This document shows positions 5,297-53,832 of a DNA stretch of 64,000 nt, piece by piece. The notes beneath the pieces are model-generated. The model did not search any database. It had not been told where the DNA came from and saw only the letters and a program-made list of their open reading frames with translations. The position numbers and the translations under genes are program-made. This stretch comes from Nitrospirota bacterium (lineage in GTDB: Bacteria; Nitrospirota; UBA9217): contig DASPSR010000011.1 in NCBI GenBank assembly GCA_035623825.1, positions 1,791 to 65,790 of the forward strand. The letters run 5' to 3'. Every line of letters starts with the position of its first letter. Position 1 is the first letter of the stretch.

Positions 5297-5308
5297 TCAT
5301 AAAAGTTT

Positions 5309-5366
5309 GCAGGTGATGGAGTTCGCCGTTAACCGCCTCTTTTATGGGGCTGATGACTCCTACTCT
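5309..5366 (+). promoter_or_regulatory. Fluoride riboswitch (crcB RNA motif) no. 1
   Basis: GGUGAUGGAGUUCGCC..UUAACCGCCUC-loop-GGGGCUGAUGACUCCUAC. P1 is GGUG/CGCC, P3 is GCCUC/GGGGC, pseudoknot is GGAGU/ACUCC. Matches the remembered crcB-motif consensus. crcB itself is in the operon. Confidence 0.85.
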
Positions 5367-5392
5367 CAATTTCATGAGGGCAGGAGTTTTTT
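5357..5392 (+). terminator. Intrinsic terminator forming the expression platform of riboswitch 1
   Basis: CTCCTACTCTC / GAGGGCAGGAG stem (one A.C mismatch) followed by TTTTTT. The 5' arm reuses the pseudoknot strand ACUCCUAC, so aptamer and terminator are mutually exclusive. Confidence 0.7.
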
Positions 5393-8182: not shown

Positions 8183-8200
8183 CGTTATCGCAGGCAAACA

Positions 8201-8260
8201 GCAGGTGATGGAGTTCACCATTAACCGTCCCGCGCATGCGGCGGGGCTGATGACTCCTAC
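8201..8260 (+). promoter_or_regulatory. Fluoride riboswitch (crcB RNA motif) no. 2
   Basis: GCAGGUGAUGGAGUUCACC.UUAACCGUCCCGC-GCAU-GCGGCGGGGCUGAUGACUCCUAC. Nearly identical core to no. 1. P1 carries a compensatory change (GGUG/CACC versus GGUG/CGCC). Confidence 0.85.
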
Positions 8261-8288
8261 TCTCGAAAGATGAGGGTAGGAGTTTTTT
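8254..8288 (+). terminator. Intrinsic terminator forming the expression platform of riboswitch 2
   Basis: CTCCTACTCTC / GAGGGTAGGAG forms an 11-bp stem followed by TTTTTT. It overlaps the aptamer 3' strand as in no. 1. Confidence 0.7.
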
Positions 8289-16956: not shown

Positions 16957-17301
16957 TTACCCTGGAGATTGGCCTGCTTCGAGCAAGCTGATAATCGGCT
17001 CATCGGGATGTGGAAGACCGGCTATCTTCCATGCGACGAGCGGGTTGATGAACTTCTCGGTTACGCAATCTTTCGGCTCACGGACAGTCTTGCAGATCGA
17101 ACCCACTATGGGGAAGAATTTGTACGTCTTGAAATGGTCACGGATGAATTGCAAAATGTCGATGCTCTCCGAGGTAAGTTCACCGACGCCCGCCCTTGCC
17201 GCAAGTTCGCGCGCCACGTCTTCATCCCAATCGTTGAAATTGATGAGATAACCGTCTTCATCCACGGCTGTAGTTCTCGATTTATATTTTAAGACCGGCA
17301 T
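16957..17301 (-). CDS. DsrC/TusE-family protein lacking the C-terminal cysteines
   Basis: DEDGYL.NF.DW.E.VA..LA..... LT..H..I..F.R..F and KIAGLP motifs of DsrC/TusE. Ends ...LLEAGQSPG with no Cys in the C-terminal arm. Confidence 0.75.
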   Translation of the reverse strand: MPVLKYKSRTTAVDEDGYLINFNDWDEDVARELAARAGVGELTSESIDILQFIRDHFKTYKFFPIVGSICKTVREPKDCVTEKFINPLVAWKIAGLPHPDEPIISLLEAGQSPG

Positions 17302-17564
17302 AAAATCAAACCCCCCTTCTTCGACCCGGCCCTAAACCCTGTTCCTAAAATTATTCTATATCTCACTCCGATGACTGTCAACGGAGATTAAAGTCGTACA
17401 AGGGAATTCAGGCACTGCGAGCGCAAAAAAGAAGCGCTGCAAGTCTTAGAGGCCCCTTGTTGCGGAAGACGAAAGGCCTGCGGACATGGGAGCACTTGAT
17501 GACGCCTCATGACCAGCTACTCGCGGCCCATACAGTCATTGCAAGAGATTCGCTGTTTTCCTCG

Positions 17565-25484: not shown

Positions 25485-25669
25485 ACTGAGGGCGGTTAAT
25501 GCTGAGATATGCGTCTTAAGTGTCTGCAATATAATGAAATACTACTTTAAAAGAATTGACATTCTTTCTGTCCGTGATATGCTTATTGTTAACATGCTTC
25601 TCCCGTCCAACCGCCCTCGTAAGGAATTAGCAACTCGTGAGAGGGCGGCTTCTTGTTCGTGGAGTTCGA

Positions 25670-27046
25670 ATGAAAGAGTATGATGTCATTGTGATCGGCG
25701 CGGGTGTTGGTACGAGAATCGCCTTTAAAGCATTATCCGCAGGTTTGAAGGTCGCCTTGGTCGACAAAAGACATCCCGGCGGAACGTGTCTTAATACCGG
25801 CTGAGTGCCGTCCAAGACGCTGATCTATCCGGCGGATAGAATACAAGAAATCAAGGAAGCCCGGAAATTCGGGATAGAGGCTAAGATAACCCGCGTCAAT
25901 TTCCGATCCATCATGGAACGTATGAAGAAGGCAGTCACCTCCGGCCGGATGCAGTTGCGAAAAGCGATCAGGGATGCCAAGAACCTGGATTTTTACAATG
26001 AGGCGGCACACTTCAGCGGAGACTACACCCTTGAGTTATCGCGAGAAAAAATCAAAGGAAGAAAGATATTCGTAGCCGTAGGCTCTCGCCCCTTGATCCC
26101 CTCAGTGCCGGGCCTCGATATCGTCGGATATTTAACCAACGAAAGCGTACTGGAGCTGAAAAGTAGACCGAAGAGCATCATCATTATCGGCGGAGGGTAT
26201 ATCGGCGTCGAATACGGGCATTTTTTTTCGGCCATAGGCACAAAAGTGACGATCGTCGGAAGAAGCGAAGTCCTTGTCCCCGATGAAGATAGCGACGTAT
26301 CGTCGCTGCTGCAAAGAGAATTGAAAAAACGCATGGATGTCCATACCGGGATGATGGTTACCCGGGTCGAAAAAAGAGGCGGGAACGTGACGGTTTTCGC
26401 GCAGGACAAAAAGAGCGGCCAGAAGAAAAGATTTGCCGCCGAACGCGTCATGGTCGCAACGGGAAGAGTATCCAATGTCGATCTGCTAAAACCGGAAAAT
26501 ACCGGCGTTGCCATTGACGAGAGAAATTACATTAGAGTCGACGATCAACTCCAGACGAGCACAGAGAACATCTGGGCAGTCGGCGACGGTATTGGCAGGC
26601 AGATGTTCACGCACGCCGGGGACAAGGAGGCTGAGATCGCCTGGCATAATGCCACGCACGGCGAAAAAATAAAAATGGATTTTACAGCCGTGCCCCGCGT
26701 AATTTTCTCTCATCCGCAGATCGCGTCAGTGGGCCTGACGGAAGCGCAGGCGCGAAAGGACCATAACGTCCTTGTGGGAAGGGCACAGTACTCCGACATT
26801 GTGGCCGGTGACACCATGGCGGAAAAAGAGGGCTTCGCCAAGGTGATTGTGGAAAAAGGTTCCGAGAGGCTTCTCGGGTGCCATATGATCGGCCCCTATG
26901 CGTCTCACCTAATACAGGAAGCGGCGAACGTTATCGCTGACAGGGGAAGTGTAAATGCAATTACCGGCAAGATGCATGCGTTCCCGACGCTGCCGGAACT
27001 CATTCCCGAGGCGCTGGGGAACCTCGAAGGGAGCGGATCTGTTTGA
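25670..27046 (+). CDS. Class-I pyridine nucleotide-disulfide oxidoreductase (dihydrolipoyl dehydrogenase/mycothione reductase-like), probable selenoprotein
   Basis: ATG 25670. MKEYDVIVIGAGVG...GGTCLNTG-TGA(25802-25804)-VPSKTLI continues in frame into track ORF 25805-27046. The TGA sits at the second Cys of the redox CxxxxC motif. C-terminal HAFPTLPE His-Glu motif. Stem-loop at 25824-25840. Confidence 0.7.
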
Positions 27047-28703: not shown

Positions 28704-29072
28704 ATGGAAAACAAGGAATTCGTATTTGTCATTACTCATTCATATGACGCCATAGAGCGGGCTGCCGCGGCTTTGCAGCTTGCAACTAATATGGCTGCTT
28801 TCGATGCAAAGATCGATTTTTTCCTGATTAATGAAGGTGTGTACCTAGCCAAGAAAGGCTTTGCCGAGTCAGTCACGTGGCAAAAAGGTTTCTCTCCCGT
28901 TGCAGACCTTATGAAAAGCCTGGTAGATGATTTTGACTGCAAATTCTACGTGTGCGCATCCTGCGTAAAGCCTTACGGGCTGGAGGGGACGGAATGGATC
29001 AAGAATGCCGAAGTCAAGCCGGGATCCTTTCTTGGCGAACTCCTTATGAAGAGGCAAAATGTGACATTCTGA
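28704..29072 (+). CDS. DsrE/DsrF-like family protein
   Basis: GGGAGGA RBS. FVFVITHS......A..AL.LA.......A.I.FFL.NEGV.L and FYVCASC pattern of the DsrE-fold family. Confidence 0.7.
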   Translation: MENKEFVFVITHSYDAIERAAAALQLATNMAAFDAKIDFFLINEGVYLAKKGFAESVTWQKGFSPVADLMKSLVDDFDCKFYVCASCVKPYGLEGTEWIKNAEVKPGSFLGELLMKRQNVTF

Positions 29073-29218: not shown

Positions 29219-29560
29219 TTGCTCCCTGTTGAAAGTCGGCTTGAACTTCTCAAAGTAATCGCTCATCCCATCCGCATCAAGATACTCGAAGATCTGACCA
29301 AGGGCGTCAAATGCGTGAGCGACTTCGAGGAGGCTTTCGACATTAGCCAGCCAAACGTGTCTCAGCACTTGAAACTCCTTCGCTCGCACCATGTCGTCGA
29401 CTACTTTGTCGACGGAAGGCTCAAATGCTATTTCCTGAAGGAGCCGTTTATTCCTGATCTACTCGAACTTCTGAAGAAAGAATATAAAAGAGATATCCCG
29501 GCGCCGGCATGCTGCCCGGTAACAAAAAAAGGGACCTATCCTGGCGAAAGGAGACGTTAG
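29219..29560 (+). CDS. ArsR/SmtB-family transcriptional regulator (BigR/SqrR-like cysteine pattern)
   Basis: TTG start behind GGAGGA. LKVIAHPIRIKILEDL....KCVSDF......SQPNVSQHLKLLR wHTH. One Cys in helix 2 and a CC pair near the C-terminus. Confidence 0.8.
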   Translation: MLPVESRLELLKVIAHPIRIKILEDLTKGVKCVSDFEEAFDISQPNVSQHLKLLRSHHVVDYFVDGRLKCYFLKEPFIPDLLELLKKEYKRDIPAPACCPVTKKGTYPGERRR

Positions 29561-29659
29561 TAAATATGACTCGTTTTTCCCGGGGCGATCGCCGGAACGG
29601 CCGGAAAGATAGTATGTAAAAGCGGTGGTAGAGACGTCTGGTTATATGAGGAGGTTGCC

Positions 29660-30016
29660 ATGCCGAAAACTGTTACTCTGTATCTATCAACGTCGCCATA
29701 CTCCTACGAGAATACGCTTACGGCCGCCCGGATGGCAGAATCGGCCTTGAACAAAGGCCATCCCGTCAATCTCATCGCCTCGGCTGACGGAGTATACTGT
29801 TTCCTCACCAAGCAGAAAGCAAAAGGCATTCTAAATGCTGAGGAGGAATTCAGCCGCCTCATACAAAAGGGGCTGAAGGTGTATCTCTGAGGCGGGTGCC
29901 TCAACTTTCGCCGTGCGGCGAAGGAAGATTATCTTGCAGGAACGGAAGTCGGCTCTCTGAAGGGACTTTTCGAAACCATGGCTGAGACCGACGTGTGGGT
30001 CAATATCGGGGCATGA
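29660..30016 (+). CDS. DsrE/TusD-like sulfur-carrier subunit, probable selenoprotein
   Basis: Track ORF 29660-29890 ends ...GLKVYL-TGA(29888-29890). The frame stays open to TGA 30014-30016 (GGCLNFRRAAKEDYL...SLKGLFETMAETDVWVNIGA). The whole aligns to TusD/DsrE with the TGA at the active-site Cys (..LNICVAAALRRG..). 8-bp hairpin with GUGC loop at 29905-29924. Confidence 0.7.
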
Positions 30017-30028
30017 GAGGAGAAAAAT

Positions 30029-30382
30029 ATGGGAAGCGTTGCGATGATTCTGAAGCGATCTCCCTATGGCGACATCAATGCTGCCGAGGCCGTTCGGCAT
30101 GCGCTCGGCGCCATGTCTTTCGAGATGAACGTTGATCTGATCCTGGTGGACGGAGGCGTGCTGCTTGCGAAGAAGGGACAGGATGACAAAGGGACAGGAT
30201 TCACCAATCTTGAAGGCGCTCTCAAGGACTGCATCGATATGGGCGTAGCAGTCTACGCGGACGTTGCATCACTTAAAGCGCAAGGCGTTCCGGCAAATGA
30301 CCTGGCGGGAAACGTGAAGCTGGTCGGCGCGAAAGAGATCGCCGGGCTCATGAAAAAAGCAAAATCGACGATGATATTCTGA
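30029..30382 (+). CDS. DsrF/TusC-like subunit
   Basis: ILKRSPYG......A.R.ALGA......V.L.LV.DGV.L pattern. 117 aa. 12 nt after the preceding stop. Confidence 0.7.
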   Translation: MGSVAMILKRSPYGDINAAEAVRHALGAMSFEMNVDLILVDGGVLLAKKGQDDKGTGFTNLEGALKDCIDMGVAVYADVASLKAQGVPANDLAGNVKLVGAKEIAGLMKKAKSTMIF

Positions 30383-30392
30383 GGAGGCTCAT

Positions 30393-30674
30393 ATGATCGT
30401 GATGATAAAAAGCGGGCCGGACACGACAGACGGGGCGAGCGGTGTGACATTAGCAAAGGTGGGAGGGGCAGATATTGTGCTGTTGCAGAACGGGGTCTAT
30501 TTCGCGCGGAAAGATCGGCTCGGGCCGTTTGCAGGCGCGGTGTATGTCCTTGACGACGACAAGCGGCTCCGGGGTCTCAAGGATTCGGAGATGGACGCCC
30601 GCGTAAAAACCATCGACTACGACAAGCTGACCGATATTATTACAGGAGGCGAAAACGTGGTTGGAATGTTCTAA
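30393..30674 (+). CDS. DsrH/TusB-like subunit
   Basis: 93 aa. ...D.VLLQNGVYFA.....L......VYVL..D...RGL pattern of TusB/DsrH. Confidence 0.65.
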   Translation: MIVMIKSGPDTTDGASGVTLAKVGGADIVLLQNGVYFARKDRLGPFAGAVYVLDDDKRLRGLKDSEMDARVKTIDYDKLTDIITGGENVVGMF

Positions 30675-30700
30675 ACCGGCAGTAGAAGGGGGTGCATGCC

Positions 30701-31891
30701 ATGTCAAGGATCGTTGTGTTGGGGGGATCGTTTGGGGGGCTTACAGCGGCTCTTGAGCTGAAACGGCTGCTGGGCAAGAAAACTGACGTGACCTTGGCAA
30801 GCGACGACGATCGGTTCGTGTTCCTGCCGTCGCTGCCGTGGATTATTATGGGCTGGAGAAAGCCCGCGGACATCACGCTCAAGGTGAGCGAGATCCTGAA
30901 ACCGAAGGGGATCGAGTTTGTCCATGATACCGCACAGCAGATCGATGCTGATGCTTCCAAGGTAATCACTTCCAAGGGGAAAGAGCTTCCCTATGATTAT
31001 CTCGTGATTTCAACGGGACCCTATCTCGCCTTCGATGAAATTCCAGGTCTCGGACCCGACAAAGGATACACAGCCTGCACTTTCACCCTTGATCACGCGA
31101 TGAAGACCCAAGAAGCATGGAAAAAGGTCTTGGAAGACCCCGGCCCAATCGTGCTCGGTTCGTCTCAGATGGTGAGCTGCTTCGGCCCATCCTATGAGCT
31201 GGCTTTCGAAATGGATGCGGAACTGAGGCGGCGCAAGATGCGGCACAAGGTCCCGATCACCTATCTCACGTCGGAGCCTTTTCTGGGGCACATGGGCGTC
31301 GGAGGGCTCGGCAACTCGAAAATCTTTATCGAATACGAATTCGCCGAACGGGACATCAAGCCAATGGTGAGCCAGGCCATCCAGGAAGTTGCTCCTGGGG
31401 AGATCCGCCTGAAAGACGGGAATAAAATGCCGTTCAAGCTCGCCATGATAGCTCCACCGTTCAAAGGGGTGCCTGCCGTCATGCCGCTCGGCAATCCCCG
31501 TGGATTCATTCCAGTGGACAAGAACTACCGCCATACGAAACATAGAAATATCTTCGCCGTAGGCGTGGCTATGGCAATAGCTCCGCCAGAGGCGACACCG
31601 GTACCCACGGGCGTCCCGAAAACGGGATTTATGACCGTAAAAATGGCGAAGACCGCGGCCGCCACGATCGCCTCGGATGTTACCGGGGGGGCTGCAAAGC
31701 CGGGTGGCGAACTCGGCGTGGTCTGCCTCATGGACATGGGGAAAACCGCCGCGCTAATGAAGGCATATCCTGTTCTTCCGCCGAGGCAGAGCACCTATAT
31801 GAAGAAGGCGATCTGGGCGAAGTGGATGAAGGTTCGATTCGAGAAATATTTTCTCTGGAAGATGAAAATGGGGCTCAGCAATCTGCCGTGA
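30701..31891 (+). CDS. Sulfide:quinone oxidoreductase-like FAD-dependent disulfide reductase
   Basis: ATG 30701 behind GAAGGGGG. IVVLGGSFGGLTAALELKR dinucleotide fold. Cys motifs MVSCFGPSYELAFE and VVCLMDMGKTAA sit at the positions of the SQR redox cysteines (from memory). Confidence 0.75.
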   Translation: MSRIVVLGGSFGGLTAALELKRLLGKKTDVTLASDDDRFVFLPSLPWIIMGWRKPADITLKVSEILKPKGIEFVHDTAQQIDADASKVITSKGKELPYDYLVISTGPYLAFDEIPGLGPDKGYTACTFTLDHAMKTQEAWKKVLEDPGPIVLGSSQMVSCFGPSYELAFEMDAELRRRKMRHKVPITYLTSEPFLGHMGVGGLGNSKIFIEYEFAERDIKPMVSQAIQEVAPGEIRLKDGNKMPFKLAMIAPPFKGVPAVMPLGNPRGFIPVDKNYRHTKHRNIFAVGVAMAIAPPEATPVPTGVPKTGFMTVKMAKTAAATIASDVTGGAAKPGGELGVVCLMDMGKTAALMKAYPVLPPRQSTYMKKAIWAKWMKVRFEKYFLWKMKMGLSNLP

Positions 31892-34675: not shown

Positions 34676-35062
34676 ATGAGTATTTCGGTAAAAAAAATAG
34701 GCGGGCGGCGGTACGCGTACACGGCATACCGAAACGGCAAAAAAGTGATTCAAAGATATATGGGCCCCATAAATGCCCCAGATGTAATCGCCCAAATGGC
34801 AGAGATTGAAAGGGCTAAATCAGTGCCTTCGCGATTATTTAGGTTTTTTTGGGATGTTGATCCTAAGACCCTCAATGTGAGCCGGCACAGTCGTTTTATT
34901 ATCGAACGGATCCTCGATGTAGGCGATCTGGATGCATTTTGGTGGGCGCAGAAGCAATATCCGACTGCATTGTTAATTGAGGTCAGCCTTACGAGCCGCA
35001 GGTTATCAGAGCGATCCAAACAATTTTGGAAAATATGGTTTCGGGGGAAATATGTATCTTAA
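34676..35062 (+). CDS. Putative antitoxin partner of the AbiEii-like nucleotidyltransferase
   Basis: ATG 34676. The C-terminal FFWDVD...L......FIIERILD.GD.DAF.W pattern is commonly found upstream of AbiEii-like genes. Overlaps the next gene by 11 nt. Confidence 0.5.
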   Translation: MSISVKKIGGRRYAYTAYRNGKKVIQRYMGPINAPDVIAQMAEIERAKSVPSRLFRFFWDVDPKTLNVSRHSRFIIERILDVGDLDAFWWAQKQYPTALLIEVSLTSRRLSERSKQFWKIWFRGKYVS

Positions 35063-35702
35063 ATGTCTCTCTCCGTCCGCGCGCAATGTCCTGAAAGTCA
35101 TTGCCCCGGTTGTCGACGAGAAAGGATTTGTACTGGCTGGAGGCACGGCGATTGCCCTGTTTCTTGGCCATCGGTTGTCCGTGGATTTTGATTTTTTCAC
35201 GACGCGGAACTTTAGACCGGACAGACTGCATCTGGCGATCTCTGGGTTAGGCTTGGAAACGATGGTTCTCCAAGAAGAGCCCGGGACGCTTACGTTATCG
35301 GCAGACGGCGTCAAGGTATCTTTTTTTCACTATCCCTATGCTTTCTTAGACGTCACGTCAAAGCTCTATGGAGTTAAAGTCGCCGGACTCGTTGATATTG
35401 CATCCATGAAGCTTATGGCAATGATGCAAAGGGGTGCAAAGAGAGACTATGTTGATCTCTATTGGATTCTCCAAAATATGCCATTCTCGAAGATTGCCGA
35501 AAACATGGTTAAACGATATGGTTCAAACCGAGTGAATCCCCTGGTGATCGGGAAGGCGCTTGTCTTTTTTCGGGATGCGGATGCAGATCCTGACCCGGAG
35601 TTTCTGGGGAAACGCGTAGCATGGGCGAAAATCAAGAAGTATTTGGTTGACCACGTTCAACAGTTTGTGTTGGATATCCAAACAGTCATTAAGAATGATT
35701 AA
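35052..35702 (+). CDS. Nucleotidyltransferase AbiEii/AbiGii-family toxin
   Basis: ATG 35052. LAGGTAIALFLGHRLSVDFDFFT and KRDYVDLYWIL motifs. Confidence 0.75.
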   Translation: MYLKCLSPSARNVLKVIAPVVDEKGFVLAGGTAIALFLGHRLSVDFDFFTTRNFRPDRLHLAISGLGLETMVLQEEPGTLTLSADGVKVSFFHYPYAFLDVTSKLYGVKVAGLVDIASMKLMAMMQRGAKRDYVDLYWILQNMPFSKIAENMVKRYGSNRVNPLVIGKALVFFRDADADPDPEFLGKRVAWAKIKKYLVDHVQQFVLDIQTVIKND

Positions 35703-44770: not shown

Positions 44771-44865
44771 ACAAATATAAATCCGTCAACACGTAACTCA
44801 TGTTCTCAATATTTTTTAGAAAAAAAAGGTTACGGTTAATTTAAATCCCTGAACACAAGATAACA

Positions 44866-44944
44866 CGATAAAGCCAAACCCTTCGCGAGAGGGGGACGGA
44901 AAGCGGCGGGTCTTAGAAGACAAAGATGGCCGAGCTGCCGAAGG
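44866..44944 (+). promoter_or_regulatory. GEMM-I (c-di-GMP-I class) riboswitch aptamer no. 1
   Basis: AAAGCCAAACC-CUUC-GCGA(GNRA)-GAGGGG-GACGGAAAGC-GGCGGG..hairpin..GGCCGAGCUGCCGAAGG. Matches the remembered GEMM-I consensus (GCAAACC..GNRA..GGGACGCAAAGCC....GCUGCC). Confidence 0.7.
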
Positions 44945-46576: not shown

Positions 46577-46665
46577 TCAATTATCTGTCTGTTACCACAT
46601 TACTCGATATTCTGAAAATTTTTCAGAATAAAATGCACTTCGTTCCACCTGAACACATGATGGCC

Positions 46666-46744
46666 CGATAAAGCCAAACCCTTCGCGAGAGGGGTGCGGA
46701 AAGCGGCGGGTCTTAGAAGACTAAGACGGCCGAGCTGCCGAAGG
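46666..46744 (+). promoter_or_regulatory. GEMM-I riboswitch aptamer no. 2
   Basis: Same core as no. 1. The internal helix GUCUUAG/CUAAGAC is perfectly paired. Confidence 0.7.
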
Positions 46745-53739: not shown

Positions 53740-53832
53740 GGATCCCGATAAAGCCAAACCCTTTGCAAGAGGAGCGGAAAGCGGCGGATCTTAAAAAACA
53801 AAGATGGCCGAGCTGCCGAAGGCTAAGATCCC
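53740..53832 (+). promoter_or_regulatory. GEMM-I riboswitch aptamer no. 3 (more divergent)
   Basis: AAAGCCAAACC-CUUU-GCAA(GNRA)-GAGG..GCGGAAAGCGGCGG..GGCCGAGCUGCCGAAGG. Closing helix GGAUC/GAUCC. No terminator follows. Confidence 0.6.

What the first reader, a model, noticed from the sequence alone, without database searches (positions are those of the whole stretch)
25670..27046. Flavoprotein disulfide reductase with TGA at the second redox cysteine (CxxxxU)
Seen in sequence:
- ATG 25670 opens MKEYDVIVIGAGVG....GGTCLNTG, then TGA (25802-25804).
- The frame then continues as VPSKTLI... into the 413-codon track ORF.
- Together these form a complete class-I pyridine nucleotide-disulfide oxidoreductase, with the TGA exactly where the family has the second Cys of GGTCxNxGCxPSK.
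- A 7-bp hairpin with a GGC loop (25824-25840) has its loop 26 nt downstream of the TGA.

Alternative: a nonsense-mutated pseudogene. The perfectly preserved frame and motifs on both sides argue against this.

A second Sec candidate in the same window (29888) makes Sec decoding in this organism more plausible.
Basis: partly seen in the sequence, partly recalled or inferred. Interest (0 to 1): 0.65.

Follow-up and report, generated by a model that had tools for sequence, protein, structure and literature searches.

The report
Selenocysteine-containing flavoprotein disulfide reductase gene
This is one intact gene for an FAD-dependent disulfide reductase whose flavin-side active-site cysteine is replaced by a UGA-encoded selenocysteine; related bacteria share this form, gene callers cut it in two, and a 2026 catalogue of bacterial selenoproteins does not list it.

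Summary

- **The gene.** ATG 25670 to TGA 27046 is one 458-codon class-I flavoprotein disulfide reductase gene. It has an in-frame TGA (25802-25804) exactly where homologues have the second, flavin-proximal Cys of CxxxxC.
- **Orthologues.** Sixteen distinct loci, mainly Nitrospirota metagenome-assembled genomes, carry TGA at this column. They fall in two or three separate lineages. Ninety-two related loci carry TGC or TGT there.
- **Selection.** The 43 codons upstream of the TGA are under strong purifying selection (dN/dS about 0.04), so this is not a pseudogene.
- **Hairpin.** The 17-nt hairpin 25824-25840 fits the published bacterial SECIS (Sec insertion element) model. It is perfect in 15 of 16 TGA loci. 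It is perfect in 0 of 26 Cys loci that encode the same peptide.
- **Silent sites.** Codons 45-58 are the strongest peak of synonymous-site conservation in the whole gene.
- **Second Sec gene.** A DsrE-like gene with a UxxC motif, a known selenoprotein family, lies 4 kb downstream.
- **Novelty.** A 2026 catalogue of 119 prokaryotic selenoprotein families lists no class-I reductase with CxxxxU. Public annotation truncates these genes.
- **Function.** The enzyme is not a canonical lipoamide dehydrogenase, because the catalytic His is Phe. Gene neighbours suggest a role in oxidative-stress defence.
- **Not shown.** Sec machinery in the same genome and selenium in the protein were not tested.

The parts
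25556..25583 (+). Sigma-70-like promoter candidate: TTGACA, 16-nt spacer, TG-extended TATGCT
   Evidence: 10 of 12 matches, TG present. Consensus match only; function is inferred.
25611..25648 (+). GC-rich 8-bp hairpin in the leader (CCGCCCTC...GAGGGCGG) followed by a T-rich run. It could be an attenuator; whether it belongs to the gene's regulation is uncertain.
   Evidence: The 3' half is shared only with the closest relative, L081.
25661..25664 (+). Ribosome-binding site GGAG, 5 nt before the ATG
   Evidence: Read directly.
25670..27046 (+). Complete coding sequence: 457 sense codons plus one Sec codon plus the stop codon. It encodes a class-I flavoprotein disulfide reductase (Pyr_redox_2 and Pyr_redox_dim domains).
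   Evidence: Orthologues run full length across the TGA.
25691..25714 (+). FAD-binding dinucleotide motif VIGAGVGT (codons 8-15). It lies upstream of the TGA, so the 413-aa product alone would lack it.
   Evidence: Pfam PF07992 match starts at residue 4.
25787..25789 (+). TGT, Cys40: the interchange cysteine, first residue of CxxxxU
   Evidence: Invariant in 17 Sec-type and 80 Cys-type sequences.
25802..25804 (+). In-frame TGA, predicted Sec45, at the flavin-proximal charge-transfer Cys position
   Evidence: Unchanged in four metagenome runs.
25802..25843 (+). Codons 45-58: the zone of extreme synonymous-site conservation (the SECIS region, including the spacer)
   Evidence: among pairs with the same amino acid, 0.95 use the same codon here. 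The gene-wide median is 0.57, and this is the top-ranked window in the gene.
25824..25840 (+). SECIS-like hairpin: 7-bp stem TCTATCC/GGATAGA with GGC loop, -7.5 kcal/mol
   Evidence: Compared with the consensus model in PMC13188914.
26189..26206 (+). NAD(P)H-binding motif GGGYIG (codons 174-179)
   Evidence: PF00070 match.
26975..26998 (+). His436-Ala-Phe438-Pro-Thr-Leu-Pro-Glu443. This is the site of the canonical His-Glu dyad, but Phe occupies the catalytic His position.
   Evidence: Alignments to human and yeast dihydrolipoyl dehydrogenase (HAHPTLSE) and mycothione reductase (IHPALAE). Family-wide column counts.
29660..30016 (+). Supporting feature: DsrE-like selenoprotein gene with TGA at 29888-29890 (motif U-G-G-C) and hairpin 29905-29924 (GUGC loop 22 nt after the UGA)
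   Evidence: The family is listed as a selenoprotein (UxxC, PF02635) in PMC13188914.

Best explanation
Window 25670-27046 is a single functional gene for a homodimer-type, FAD- and NAD(P)H-dependent class-I disulfide oxidoreductase.

**Decoding (inferred from comparative evidence).** UGA 25802-25804 is decoded as selenocysteine. The 17-nt hairpin at 25824-25840 acts as a bacterial SECIS. It would recruit SelB carrying Sec-tRNA(Sec) to the ribosome paused at the UGA. The product is a 457-residue protein with a Cys40/Sec45 selenenylsulfide in place of the usual CxxxxC disulfide.

**Chemistry (inferred by homology).** NAD(P)H reduces FAD. The reduced flavin reduces the selenenylsulfide through Sec45, which occupies the flavin-proximal charge-transfer position. 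Cys40, the interchange thiol, then attacks the substrate.

**Departure from the textbook enzyme.** The usual catalytic His is Phe438 here, while Glu443 is kept. The low-pKa selenolate may take over part of the acid/base and charge-transfer role; this is speculative.

**Physiological role (least certain).** The best guess is a reductase for a low-molecular-weight disulfide, persulfide or oxidant in oxidative-stress defence in an anaerobic, sulfur-cycling Nitrospirota bacterium from peat. If Sec is not inserted, translation ends after 44 residues, so expression should depend on selenium.
For: - **Cys/Sec column.** The TGA aligns with the second Cys of CxxxxC in solved homologues.
- **Orthologues.** Sixteen distinct loci have TGA at that column and 92 have TGC/TGT. 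Sec forms sit in at least two or three places among Cys forms in a neighbour-joining tree.
- **Coding upstream of the TGA.** The segment upstream has dN/dS of about 0.04 with saturated dS. It carries the FAD-binding motif and Cys40.
- **Hairpin versus codon.** The hairpin is perfect in 15 of 16 TGA loci. It is perfect in 0 of 26 Cys loci that encode the same YP[AG]DR peptide (Fisher p = 1.6e-10, not corrected for phylogeny).
- **Hairpin across lineages.** It is 17/17 identical between the window and L155, although the two genes share only 57% of nucleotides and 49% of amino acids.
- **Silent-site peak.** Codons 45-58 are the highest synonymous-conservation window in the gene.
- **SECIS model.** The hairpin meets the published criteria: loop 3-9 nt, stem 4-16 bp, G in the first two loop positions, 16-37 nt spacing, energy of -7.5 kcal/mol or lower.
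- **Standard code.** TGA is otherwise a normal stop. It ends 17 of 39 long ORFs, and it ends this gene itself.
- **Sec use in the organism and lineage.** A known-family selenoprotein gene (DsrE-like, UxxC) lies in the same window. Nitrospirota are documented Sec users.
- **Role.** In Sec-type loci the neighbours include Fe/Mn superoxide dismutase, rubrerythrin/ferritin-like proteins, YceI, Usp and DUF488.
Against: - No selA, selB, selC or selD is in the window or in about 2 Mb of fetched flanks. The rest of the genome could not be searched.
- The hairpin is small. By itself it folds no better than shuffled sequence.
- The hairpin is invariant, so there is no compensatory covariation.
- There is no protein-level or selenium-labelling evidence.
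- The substrate is unknown. Gene neighbourhoods are only partly conserved, and in this window the neighbours are unrelated (DUF1254/DUF1214, DUF2934).
- The tree is a simple distance tree.
Confidence: 0.88

Rival explanations
1. The gene is a nonsense-mutated pseudogene of a Cys-type reductase.
For: Gene callers split it into ORFs of 44 aa and 404-413 aa. NCBI annotates a relative as a 395-aa 'FAD-dependent oxidoreductase'.
Against: The same TGA occurs in 16 distinct loci that are 49-87% identical, with intact frames. The segment upstream of the TGA has dN/dS of about 0.04. A hairpin held at silent sites co-occurs with the TGA.
Confidence: 0.01
2. The UGA is read through, but not as Sec. It could be near-cognate Trp or Cys insertion, or a lineage-wide UGA sense reassignment.
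For: Sec machinery was not seen. Homologues have Cys here, so Cys insertion would give an active enzyme.
Against: TGA is the most common ordinary stop in the window, and it terminates this gene in the window, L081 and L166. A conserved SECIS-type hairpin at the canonical distance is specific to TGA-bearing genes. A known-family selenoprotein gene is in the same window.
Confidence: 0.05
3. The UGA terminates translation. The functional product is the 413-aa protein from GTG 25805 (or the 404-aa equivalent in relatives), possibly together with a separate 44-aa peptide.
For: ORFs of that size are what databases hold.
Against: That product would lack the FAD-binding GxGxxG fold and both redox residues. 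No ribosome-binding site precedes 25805. Relatives 'start' at a Met that is Thr in the window, so the start is not conserved. The upstream segment is conserved in the same frame.
Confidence: 0.02
4. The conserved hairpin serves another purpose, such as mRNA stability, ribosome pausing or a protein-binding site, and its link to the TGA is coincidental.
For: The hairpin is short and invariant, so there is no covariation. The closest Cys forms (L084-L086, L097) already have 6 of 7 pairs.
Against: The perfect hairpin tracks the TGA across separate lineages. It degrades in Cys sister lineages: L035 and L150 have 2 of 7 pairs, beside L155 with 7 of 7. Its position and its G-G loop fit the SECIS model.
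Confidence: 0.04

Closest known systems
Cys-type orthologues of the same family (NCBIfam NF004947 / PRK06292.2-5, named 'dihydrolipoyl dehydrogenase'; JGI name 'mycothione reductase')
   Same: They are 58-63% identical over the full length, with the same domains, the GGTCxNxG[C/U]xPSK motif and the H-x-[F/H]-P-x-L-x-E C-terminal motif.
   Different: They have TGC/TGT instead of TGA and lack the perfect hairpin. The window scores 554 bits, below the curated 592-bit cutoff. No member appears to be characterised; the family name is by similarity only.
Mycothione reductase (PDB 8qcj, 8rx4) and dihydrolipoyl dehydrogenase (PDB 6i4s, 1jeh): canonical class-I disulfide oxidoreductases
   Same: These are the best solved-structure matches (E = 2e-73). 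They share the FAD and NAD(P)H domains, the dimerisation domain and the position of the redox pair.
   Different: The canonical enzymes have Cys-Cys and a catalytic His-Glu dyad. The window has Cys-Sec and Phe438 at the His position. No E1/E2 or glycine-cleavage genes are nearby.
Mammalian-type high-Mr thioredoxin reductase (own knowledge; also PMC10840350 as listed)
   Same: It is a class-I flavoprotein disulfide reductase that is also a selenoprotein.
   Different: In thioredoxin reductase the Sec sits in a C-terminal GCUG extension, and the N-terminal CVNVGC pair stays Cys-Cys. Here the Sec is inside the flavin-adjacent pair, and the protein ends ...GNLEGSGSV with no C-terminal redox motif. 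Decoding also differs: a bacterial in-frame SECIS versus a eukaryotic 3'-UTR SECIS.
[quoted passage not shown]
   Same: They are bacterial flavoproteins of the pyridine-nucleotide-disulfide oxidoreductase superfamily in which Sec replaces a flavin-side redox Cys.
   Different: They belong to different subfamilies (TIGR03385, COG1252). They use a single-Cys or other motif and have no CxxxxC pair. The window matches TIGR03385 only weakly (80 bits against a 579-bit cutoff).
2-ketopropyl-CoM oxidoreductase/carboxylase (2-KPCC)
   Same: It is a class-I family member in which Phe replaces the dyad His. In that enzyme the flavin-side Cys is proposed to act as an internal base (PMC8358701).
   Different: 2-KPCC has Phe-His; the window has Phe-Glu. 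2-KPCC is a Cys-Cys carboxylase of alkene metabolism. No specific similarity was found in these searches.

Membership tests
Bacterial selenoprotein gene (Sec-UGA with in-frame SECIS) | In-frame UGA at a position where homologues carry Cys | tested here: met
   92 distinct loci have TGC/TGT at this column.
Bacterial selenoprotein gene (Sec-UGA with in-frame SECIS) | UGA-containing orthologues in other organisms, with coding conservation on both sides | tested here: met
   Sixteen distinct TGA loci. dN/dS is about 0.04 upstream of the TGA.
Bacterial selenoprotein gene (Sec-UGA with in-frame SECIS) | Stem-loop fitting the bacterial SECIS consensus: loop 3-9 nt, stem 4-16 bp, G in the first two loop positions, 16-37 nt from the UGA, energy of -7.5 kcal/mol or lower | tested here: met
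   The loop is GGC (3 nt), the stem is 7 bp, the spacing is 26 nt and the energy is -7.5 kcal/mol, exactly at the threshold. Criteria are from PMC13188914.
Bacterial selenoprotein gene (Sec-UGA with in-frame SECIS) | RNA element conserved beyond what the protein sequence requires | tested here: met
Bacterial selenoprotein gene (Sec-UGA with in-frame SECIS) | selA, selB, selC (tRNA-Sec) and selD present in the same genome | not testable with these tools
   None are in the 64-kb window or in the fetched flanks. Whole genomes could not be scanned. Indirect support: a known-family selenoprotein gene is in the window, and Nitrospirota are reported to use Sec.
Bacterial selenoprotein gene (Sec-UGA with in-frame SECIS) | Selenium in the protein (75Se labelling or mass spectrometry) | not testable with these tools
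   This needs an experiment.
Class-I flavoprotein disulfide oxidoreductase | Pyr_redox_2 FAD/NAD(P)H domains plus the Pyr_redox_dim dimerisation domain | tested here: met
   PF07992 E = 3e-56, PF02852 E = 9e-28, PF00070 E = 3e-17.
Class-I flavoprotein disulfide oxidoreductase | Redox-active CxxxxC next to the flavin | tested here: met
   It is present as C40-L-N-T-G-U45. The first Cys is invariant and the second is the UGA.
Class-I flavoprotein disulfide oxidoreductase | Catalytic His-Glu dyad in the C-terminal domain | tested here: not met
   Phe438 aligns with the catalytic His of human and yeast dihydrolipoyl dehydrogenase and of mycothione reductase. Glu443 is kept. All 12 clade-A sequences have Phe.
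Dihydrolipoyl dehydrogenase (E3) | Score above the curated family cutoff | tested here: not met
   NF004947: 554 bits against a cutoff of 592. TIGR01350: 375 bits against 409.
Dihydrolipoyl dehydrogenase (E3) | Association with 2-oxoacid dehydrogenase or glycine-cleavage genes | tested here: not met
   None appear in the window neighbourhood or in six related annotated loci.
Mycothione reductase / glutathione reductase | Score above the cutoff and the His-Glu dyad | tested here: not met
   NF005884: 380 bits against 501. NF004776: 287 bits against 480. The His is replaced by Phe.
Mercuric reductase MerA | Score above the cutoff and a C-terminal Cys-Cys pair | tested here: not met
   TIGR02053: 355 bits against 454. 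The C-terminus ...EALGNLEGSGSV has no Cys.
High-Mr thioredoxin reductase | C-terminal redox-active GCUG or Cys-Cys extension | tested here: not met
   It is absent. TIGR01438: 167 bits against 476.
DsrE-like selenoprotein (second candidate, 29660-30016) | PF02635 domain with Sec in a UxxC motif | tested here: met
   PF02635 E = 4e-15. The motif is U-G-G-C. More than 100 close homologues end at the same TGA. The family is listed in PMC13188914 Table 1.

The most novel reading that the evidence does not exclude
This is a previously uncatalogued prokaryotic selenoprotein family. It would be the first class-I flavoprotein disulfide reductase in which Sec replaces the flavin-proximal charge-transfer Cys, giving an FAD-selenenylsulfide centre. 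It occurs in a sub-lineage that has also lost the catalytic His. It is decoded through an unusually compact, sequence-invariant 17-nt SECIS that has been gained or kept in at least two lineages. Its substrate may be something other than a classical disulfide, for example a persulfide, a polysulfide or an oxidant.
Probability: 0.6. Interest if true: 0.62.

Novelty: new variant of a known kind. Interest (0 to 1): 0.55.

Why it matters
- **Annotation.** Gene callers and GenBank split or truncate these genes into 44 aa plus 395-413 aa. The active enzyme is therefore invisible in databases, and the selenoproteome of peat and sediment Nitrospirota is under-counted.
- **Enzymology.** Class-I disulfide reductases are a textbook family. 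A natural version with selenium at the flavin charge-transfer position, and without the catalytic His, would give a direct natural test of what Sec contributes to flavin-to-dichalcogenide electron transfer. It differs from thioredoxin reductase, where Sec sits on a distal tail.
- **Evolution.** The near-palindromic codons for YPADR show how a SECIS can arise from ordinary coding sequence. The closest Cys relatives differ from the hairpin by a single silent change.
- **Ecology.** It links selenium availability to stress defence in anaerobic sulfur-cycling bacteria in peat.

Tried and rejected
- **Rfam.** Searches at gathering thresholds and at E up to 10 found no known RNA family at the hairpin or in the leader.
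- **Sec machinery.** ARAGORN found no tRNA, including tRNA-Sec, in the window. Motif scans for SelA, SelB and SelD in the window and in about 2 Mb of fetched loci found nothing. This is uninformative about the whole genome.
- **Structure prediction.** Modelling a Cys homologue was judged to add little.
- **SQR-like gene.** I checked whether the gene at 30692-31891 is the 'type III SQR selenoprotein subtype'. It has no in-frame TGA, and the sequence after its stop does not look coding. Rejected.
- **Leader hairpin.** The hairpin at 25611-25648 was tested for conservation in relatives. Only the nearest relative shares part of it, so no regulatory claim is made.
- **Other TGA-joined ORF pairs.** Those listed were inspected only by position and were not pursued.
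- **Literature.** 'CxxxxU' occurs in 0 papers. No listed paper in the selenoprotein searches mentions dihydrolipoyl or dihydrolipoamide dehydrogenase as a selenoprotein.
- **Genetic-code reassignment.** Considered and rejected because of TGA stop usage.
Full report
**1. The observation.**
The window reads as described. ATG 25670, preceded by GGAG at 25661-25664, opens MKEYDVIVIGAGVGT...GGTCLNTG. A TGA lies at 25802-25804. The same frame continues VPSKTLIYPADR... for 413 more codons to the TGA stop at 27044-27046. The hairpin TCTATCC-GGC-GGATAGA occupies 25824-25840, and its loop begins 26 nt after the UGA. Contigs from four independent peat-metagenome runs carry the same TGA. A co-occurring strain variant has six substitutions nearby, but none in the TGA or the hairpin.

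**2. What the protein is.**
With Cys placed at the TGA, the 457-residue product matches three Pfam domains:
- Pyr_redox_2 (E = 3e-56)
- Pyr_redox (E = 3e-17)
- Pyr_redox_dim (E = 9e-28)

Its best NCBIfam model is NF004947 'dihydrolipoyl dehydrogenase', at 554 bits against a curated cutoff of 592. The best solved structures are mycothione reductases, mercuric reductases and dihydrolipoyl dehydrogenases. In those alignments the TGA falls on the second Cys of the CLNVGC redox pair. In this family the first Cys is the interchange thiol. The second Cys is the one in charge-transfer contact with FAD (PMC8358701). The predicted Sec45 is therefore at the flavin-proximal position. The FAD-binding motif and Cys40 lie upstream of the TGA. 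A protein starting at 25805 would lack them.

**3. Orthologues.**
A protein search returned the closest relatives (66-87% identity) only as 404-409-aa fragments beginning MLIYPADR, five residues after the TGA column. Relatives at 63% identity or less are full length with Cys. I fetched DNA from species-representative genomes, metagenomes and the contigs that encode those fragments. Every fragment examined is preceded by an in-frame TGA and a conserved N-terminal segment.

In total, 16 distinct loci have TGA and 92 have TGC or TGT at this column. The TGA loci fall into these groups:
- **Clade A:** GGTCLNTG-U-VPSK. It includes the window and Nitrospirae/Nitrospiraceae metagenome-assembled genomes.
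- **A second group:** GGTCLNVG-U-IPTK. These are Nitrospirota and share about 50% amino-acid identity with the window.

In a neighbour-joining tree the second group is interleaved with Cys forms, so Sec and Cys have been exchanged more than once.

**4. Not a pseudogene and not a code change.**
Across clade A, codons 2-44 have mean dN 0.06 and mean dS 1.45, a ratio of about 0.04. This shows strong purifying selection on the peptide upstream of the TGA, in the same frame as the downstream part. TGA is the most common ordinary stop in the window, ending 17 of 39 long ORFs. It also terminates this gene in the window, L081 and L166.

**5. The RNA element.**
The published bacterial SECIS consensus requires the following (PMC13188914):
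- an apical loop of 3-9 nt
- an upper stem of 4-16 bp
- G in one of the first two loop positions, often followed by G or U
- 16-37 nt between the UGA and the loop
- an energy of -7.5 kcal/mol or lower

The hairpin has a GGC loop, a 7-bp stem, 26-nt spacing and -7.5 kcal/mol. It meets every criterion, the energy one only just. Alone it is unremarkable, with z = -0.05 against shuffles. The comparative signal is strong:
- The hairpin encodes (I/V)YP(A/G)DR, a peptide that many Cys-type homologues also have.
- It is perfect in 15 of 16 TGA loci and has 6 of 7 pairs in the remaining one.
- It is perfect in 0 of 26 Cys loci with the same peptide, and in 1 of 92 Cys loci overall.
- Within clade A, pairs with the same amino acid use the same codon 95% of the time in codons 46-58. 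Upstream the figure is 52%, downstream 58%, and the gene-wide median is 57%. The window starting at codon 45 ranks first in the whole gene.
- The window and L155 share 49% of amino acids and 57% of nucleotides, yet 17 of 17 hairpin bases.
- Cys sister sequences of the second group, L035 and L150, keep only 2 of 7 pairs.

Because the element does not vary, no covariation test is possible.

**6. Sec use by this organism.**
No tRNA and no SelA, SelB or SelD motif is present in the window, and the rest of the genome was out of reach. Two indirect lines support Sec use. First, ORF 29660-30016 is a DsrE-family protein with TGA at 29888 in a U-G-G-C motif. It is followed by an 8-bp hairpin with a GUGC loop 22 nt downstream; the whole 63-nt stretch after the UGA folds with z = -2.1. 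More than 100 close homologues end at exactly that codon. 'DsrE-like, UxxC, PF02635' is an established predicted selenoprotein family. Second, Nitrospirae are reported to carry selB/selC, and Thermodesulfovibrionia carry Sec-containing multihaem enzymes.

**7. How it probably works.**
*Shown:* gene structure, the Cys/Sec column, the conserved hairpin and the domain content.

*Inferred by homology:* SelB carrying Sec-tRNA(Sec) binds the hairpin and inserts Sec at codon 45. NAD(P)H reduces FAD. The flavin reduces the Cys40-Sec45 selenenylsulfide through Sec45. Cys40 then reacts with the substrate.

*A departure from the textbook enzyme:* the catalytic His of the His-Glu dyad is Phe438. The window reads H-A-F-P-T-L-P-E, against HAHPTLSE in human and yeast E3 and IHPALAE in mycothione reductase. 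All clade-A sequences have Phe, the second Sec group has His, and the Cys forms split 43 His to 37 Phe. In 2-KPCC, another member with Phe at this site, the flavin-side Cys is proposed to serve as an internal base. A low-pKa selenolate could do the same here, but this is speculation.

*Role:* the gene is never next to 2-oxoacid dehydrogenase or glycine-cleavage genes. In annotated Sec-type loci the neighbours are:
- Fe/Mn superoxide dismutase immediately upstream (L167, L168)
- rubrerythrin/ferritin-like proteins (L161, L166, L169), with YceI in L161 and L169
- DUF488 in five loci
- Usp (L162, L167)
- an AIF-like flavoprotein

In the window itself the neighbours are a DUF1254/DUF1214 protein and a DUF2934 protein, with a sulfur-relay cluster 2-5 kb downstream. 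I therefore favour an oxidative-stress or thiol-homeostasis reductase, with about 45% confidence for that role. The substrate is unknown.

**8. Comparison with what is known, and novelty.**
The 2026 catalogue of 119 prokaryotic selenoprotein families and subfamilies lists no dihydrolipoyl-dehydrogenase-like, mycothione-reductase-like or other class-I reductase with Sec in the CxxxxC pair. The nearest entries are a CoA-disulfide-reductase/NADH-oxidase-type flavoprotein (UGxP), a type III sulfide:quinone reductase subtype (HxxU), and a metal-binding 'putative mercuric reductase' domain (UxxU). 'CxxxxU' occurs in no paper in the searchable library. No listed selenoprotein paper mentions dihydrolipoyl dehydrogenase. 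GenBank names a relative 'FAD-dependent oxidoreductase' at 395 aa, that is, truncated. No dedicated NCBIfam model outranks NF004947.

Eukaryotic thioredoxin reductase is the known Sec-containing class-I reductase, but its Sec lies in a C-terminal GCUG tail that is absent here. I therefore rate this a new variant of a known kind. The decoding mechanism is ordinary and the protein superfamily is ordinary. What appears undescribed is the position of Sec in the active site. One caveat applies: the library does not hold all papers or supplements.

**9. Verdict.**
Confidence that this is a genuine Sec-encoding gene is about 0.88. Interest is moderate (0.55). It is a clean, multi-lineage selenoprotein family that is probably uncatalogued and has mechanistic appeal, but it follows the familiar rule that Sec replaces a redox-active Cys.

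Noticed in passing
window 29219-31891: A sulfur-relay cluster on the + strand. It holds an ArsR-family regulator (29219-29560), DsrE-like with in-frame TGA 29888 (29660-30016), DsrF-like (30029-30382), DsrH (30393-30674) and an SQR/NDH-like flavoprotein (30692-31891). Another DsrE-family gene lies at 28704-29072. Gene callers truncate the Sec-type DsrE to 76 aa in hundreds of database entries.
   Followed up: partly
window 25556-25669: A promoter-like site (TTGACA, 16-nt spacer, TG-TATGCT) is followed by a GC-rich 8-bp hairpin (25611-25648) and a T-rich run just before the ribosome-binding site. This may be a leader or attenuator. Only the nearest relative (L081) shares part of it.
   Followed up: partly
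L084, L085, L086, L097 (Cys-type, about 61-62% identical): These TGT-bearing relatives read TCTATCCGGCGGACAGA, one silent change (GAC versus GAT) away from the full Sec-type hairpin. The YPADR codons are naturally near-palindromic. This suggests an easy route to, or a relic of, a SECIS.
   Followed up: partly
window 26981-26983 (Phe438) and the family alignment: The family is split at the catalytic-His position of the His-Glu dyad. Among Cys forms, 43 have His and 37 have Phe. Sec clade A is all Phe and the second Sec group is all His. The curated name 'dihydrolipoyl dehydrogenase' for the Phe subgroup looks doubtful.
   Followed up: partly
L161, L166, L167, L168, L169: DUF488 genes recur within a few kilobases of Sec-type orthologues, alongside SOD, rubrerythrin/ferritin-like proteins, YceI, Usp and DciA. 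A functional link between DUF488 and this reductase is unexplained.
   Followed up: no
window 5303-5369, 8195-8266; 44864-44943, 46664-46743, 53743-53820: There are two fluoride riboswitches and three c-di-GMP-I-type riboswitches, all above Rfam gathering scores.
   Followed up: no
window 25717-25818 in run X4: A co-occurring strain variant in one peat metagenome shows several substitutions in this stretch. One is 25818 C>T, which turns Thr50 into the Met seen in relatives. The TGA and the hairpin are untouched.
   Followed up: yes
window 34977-35702, and about 17000-17350 on the minus strand: An AbiEii-family toxin gene (type IV toxin-antitoxin) lies next to a DUF6922 gene. A DsrC-family gene lies upstream of the nitroreductase-like ORF, according to the JGI gene calls on the matching contig L163.
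   Followed up: no
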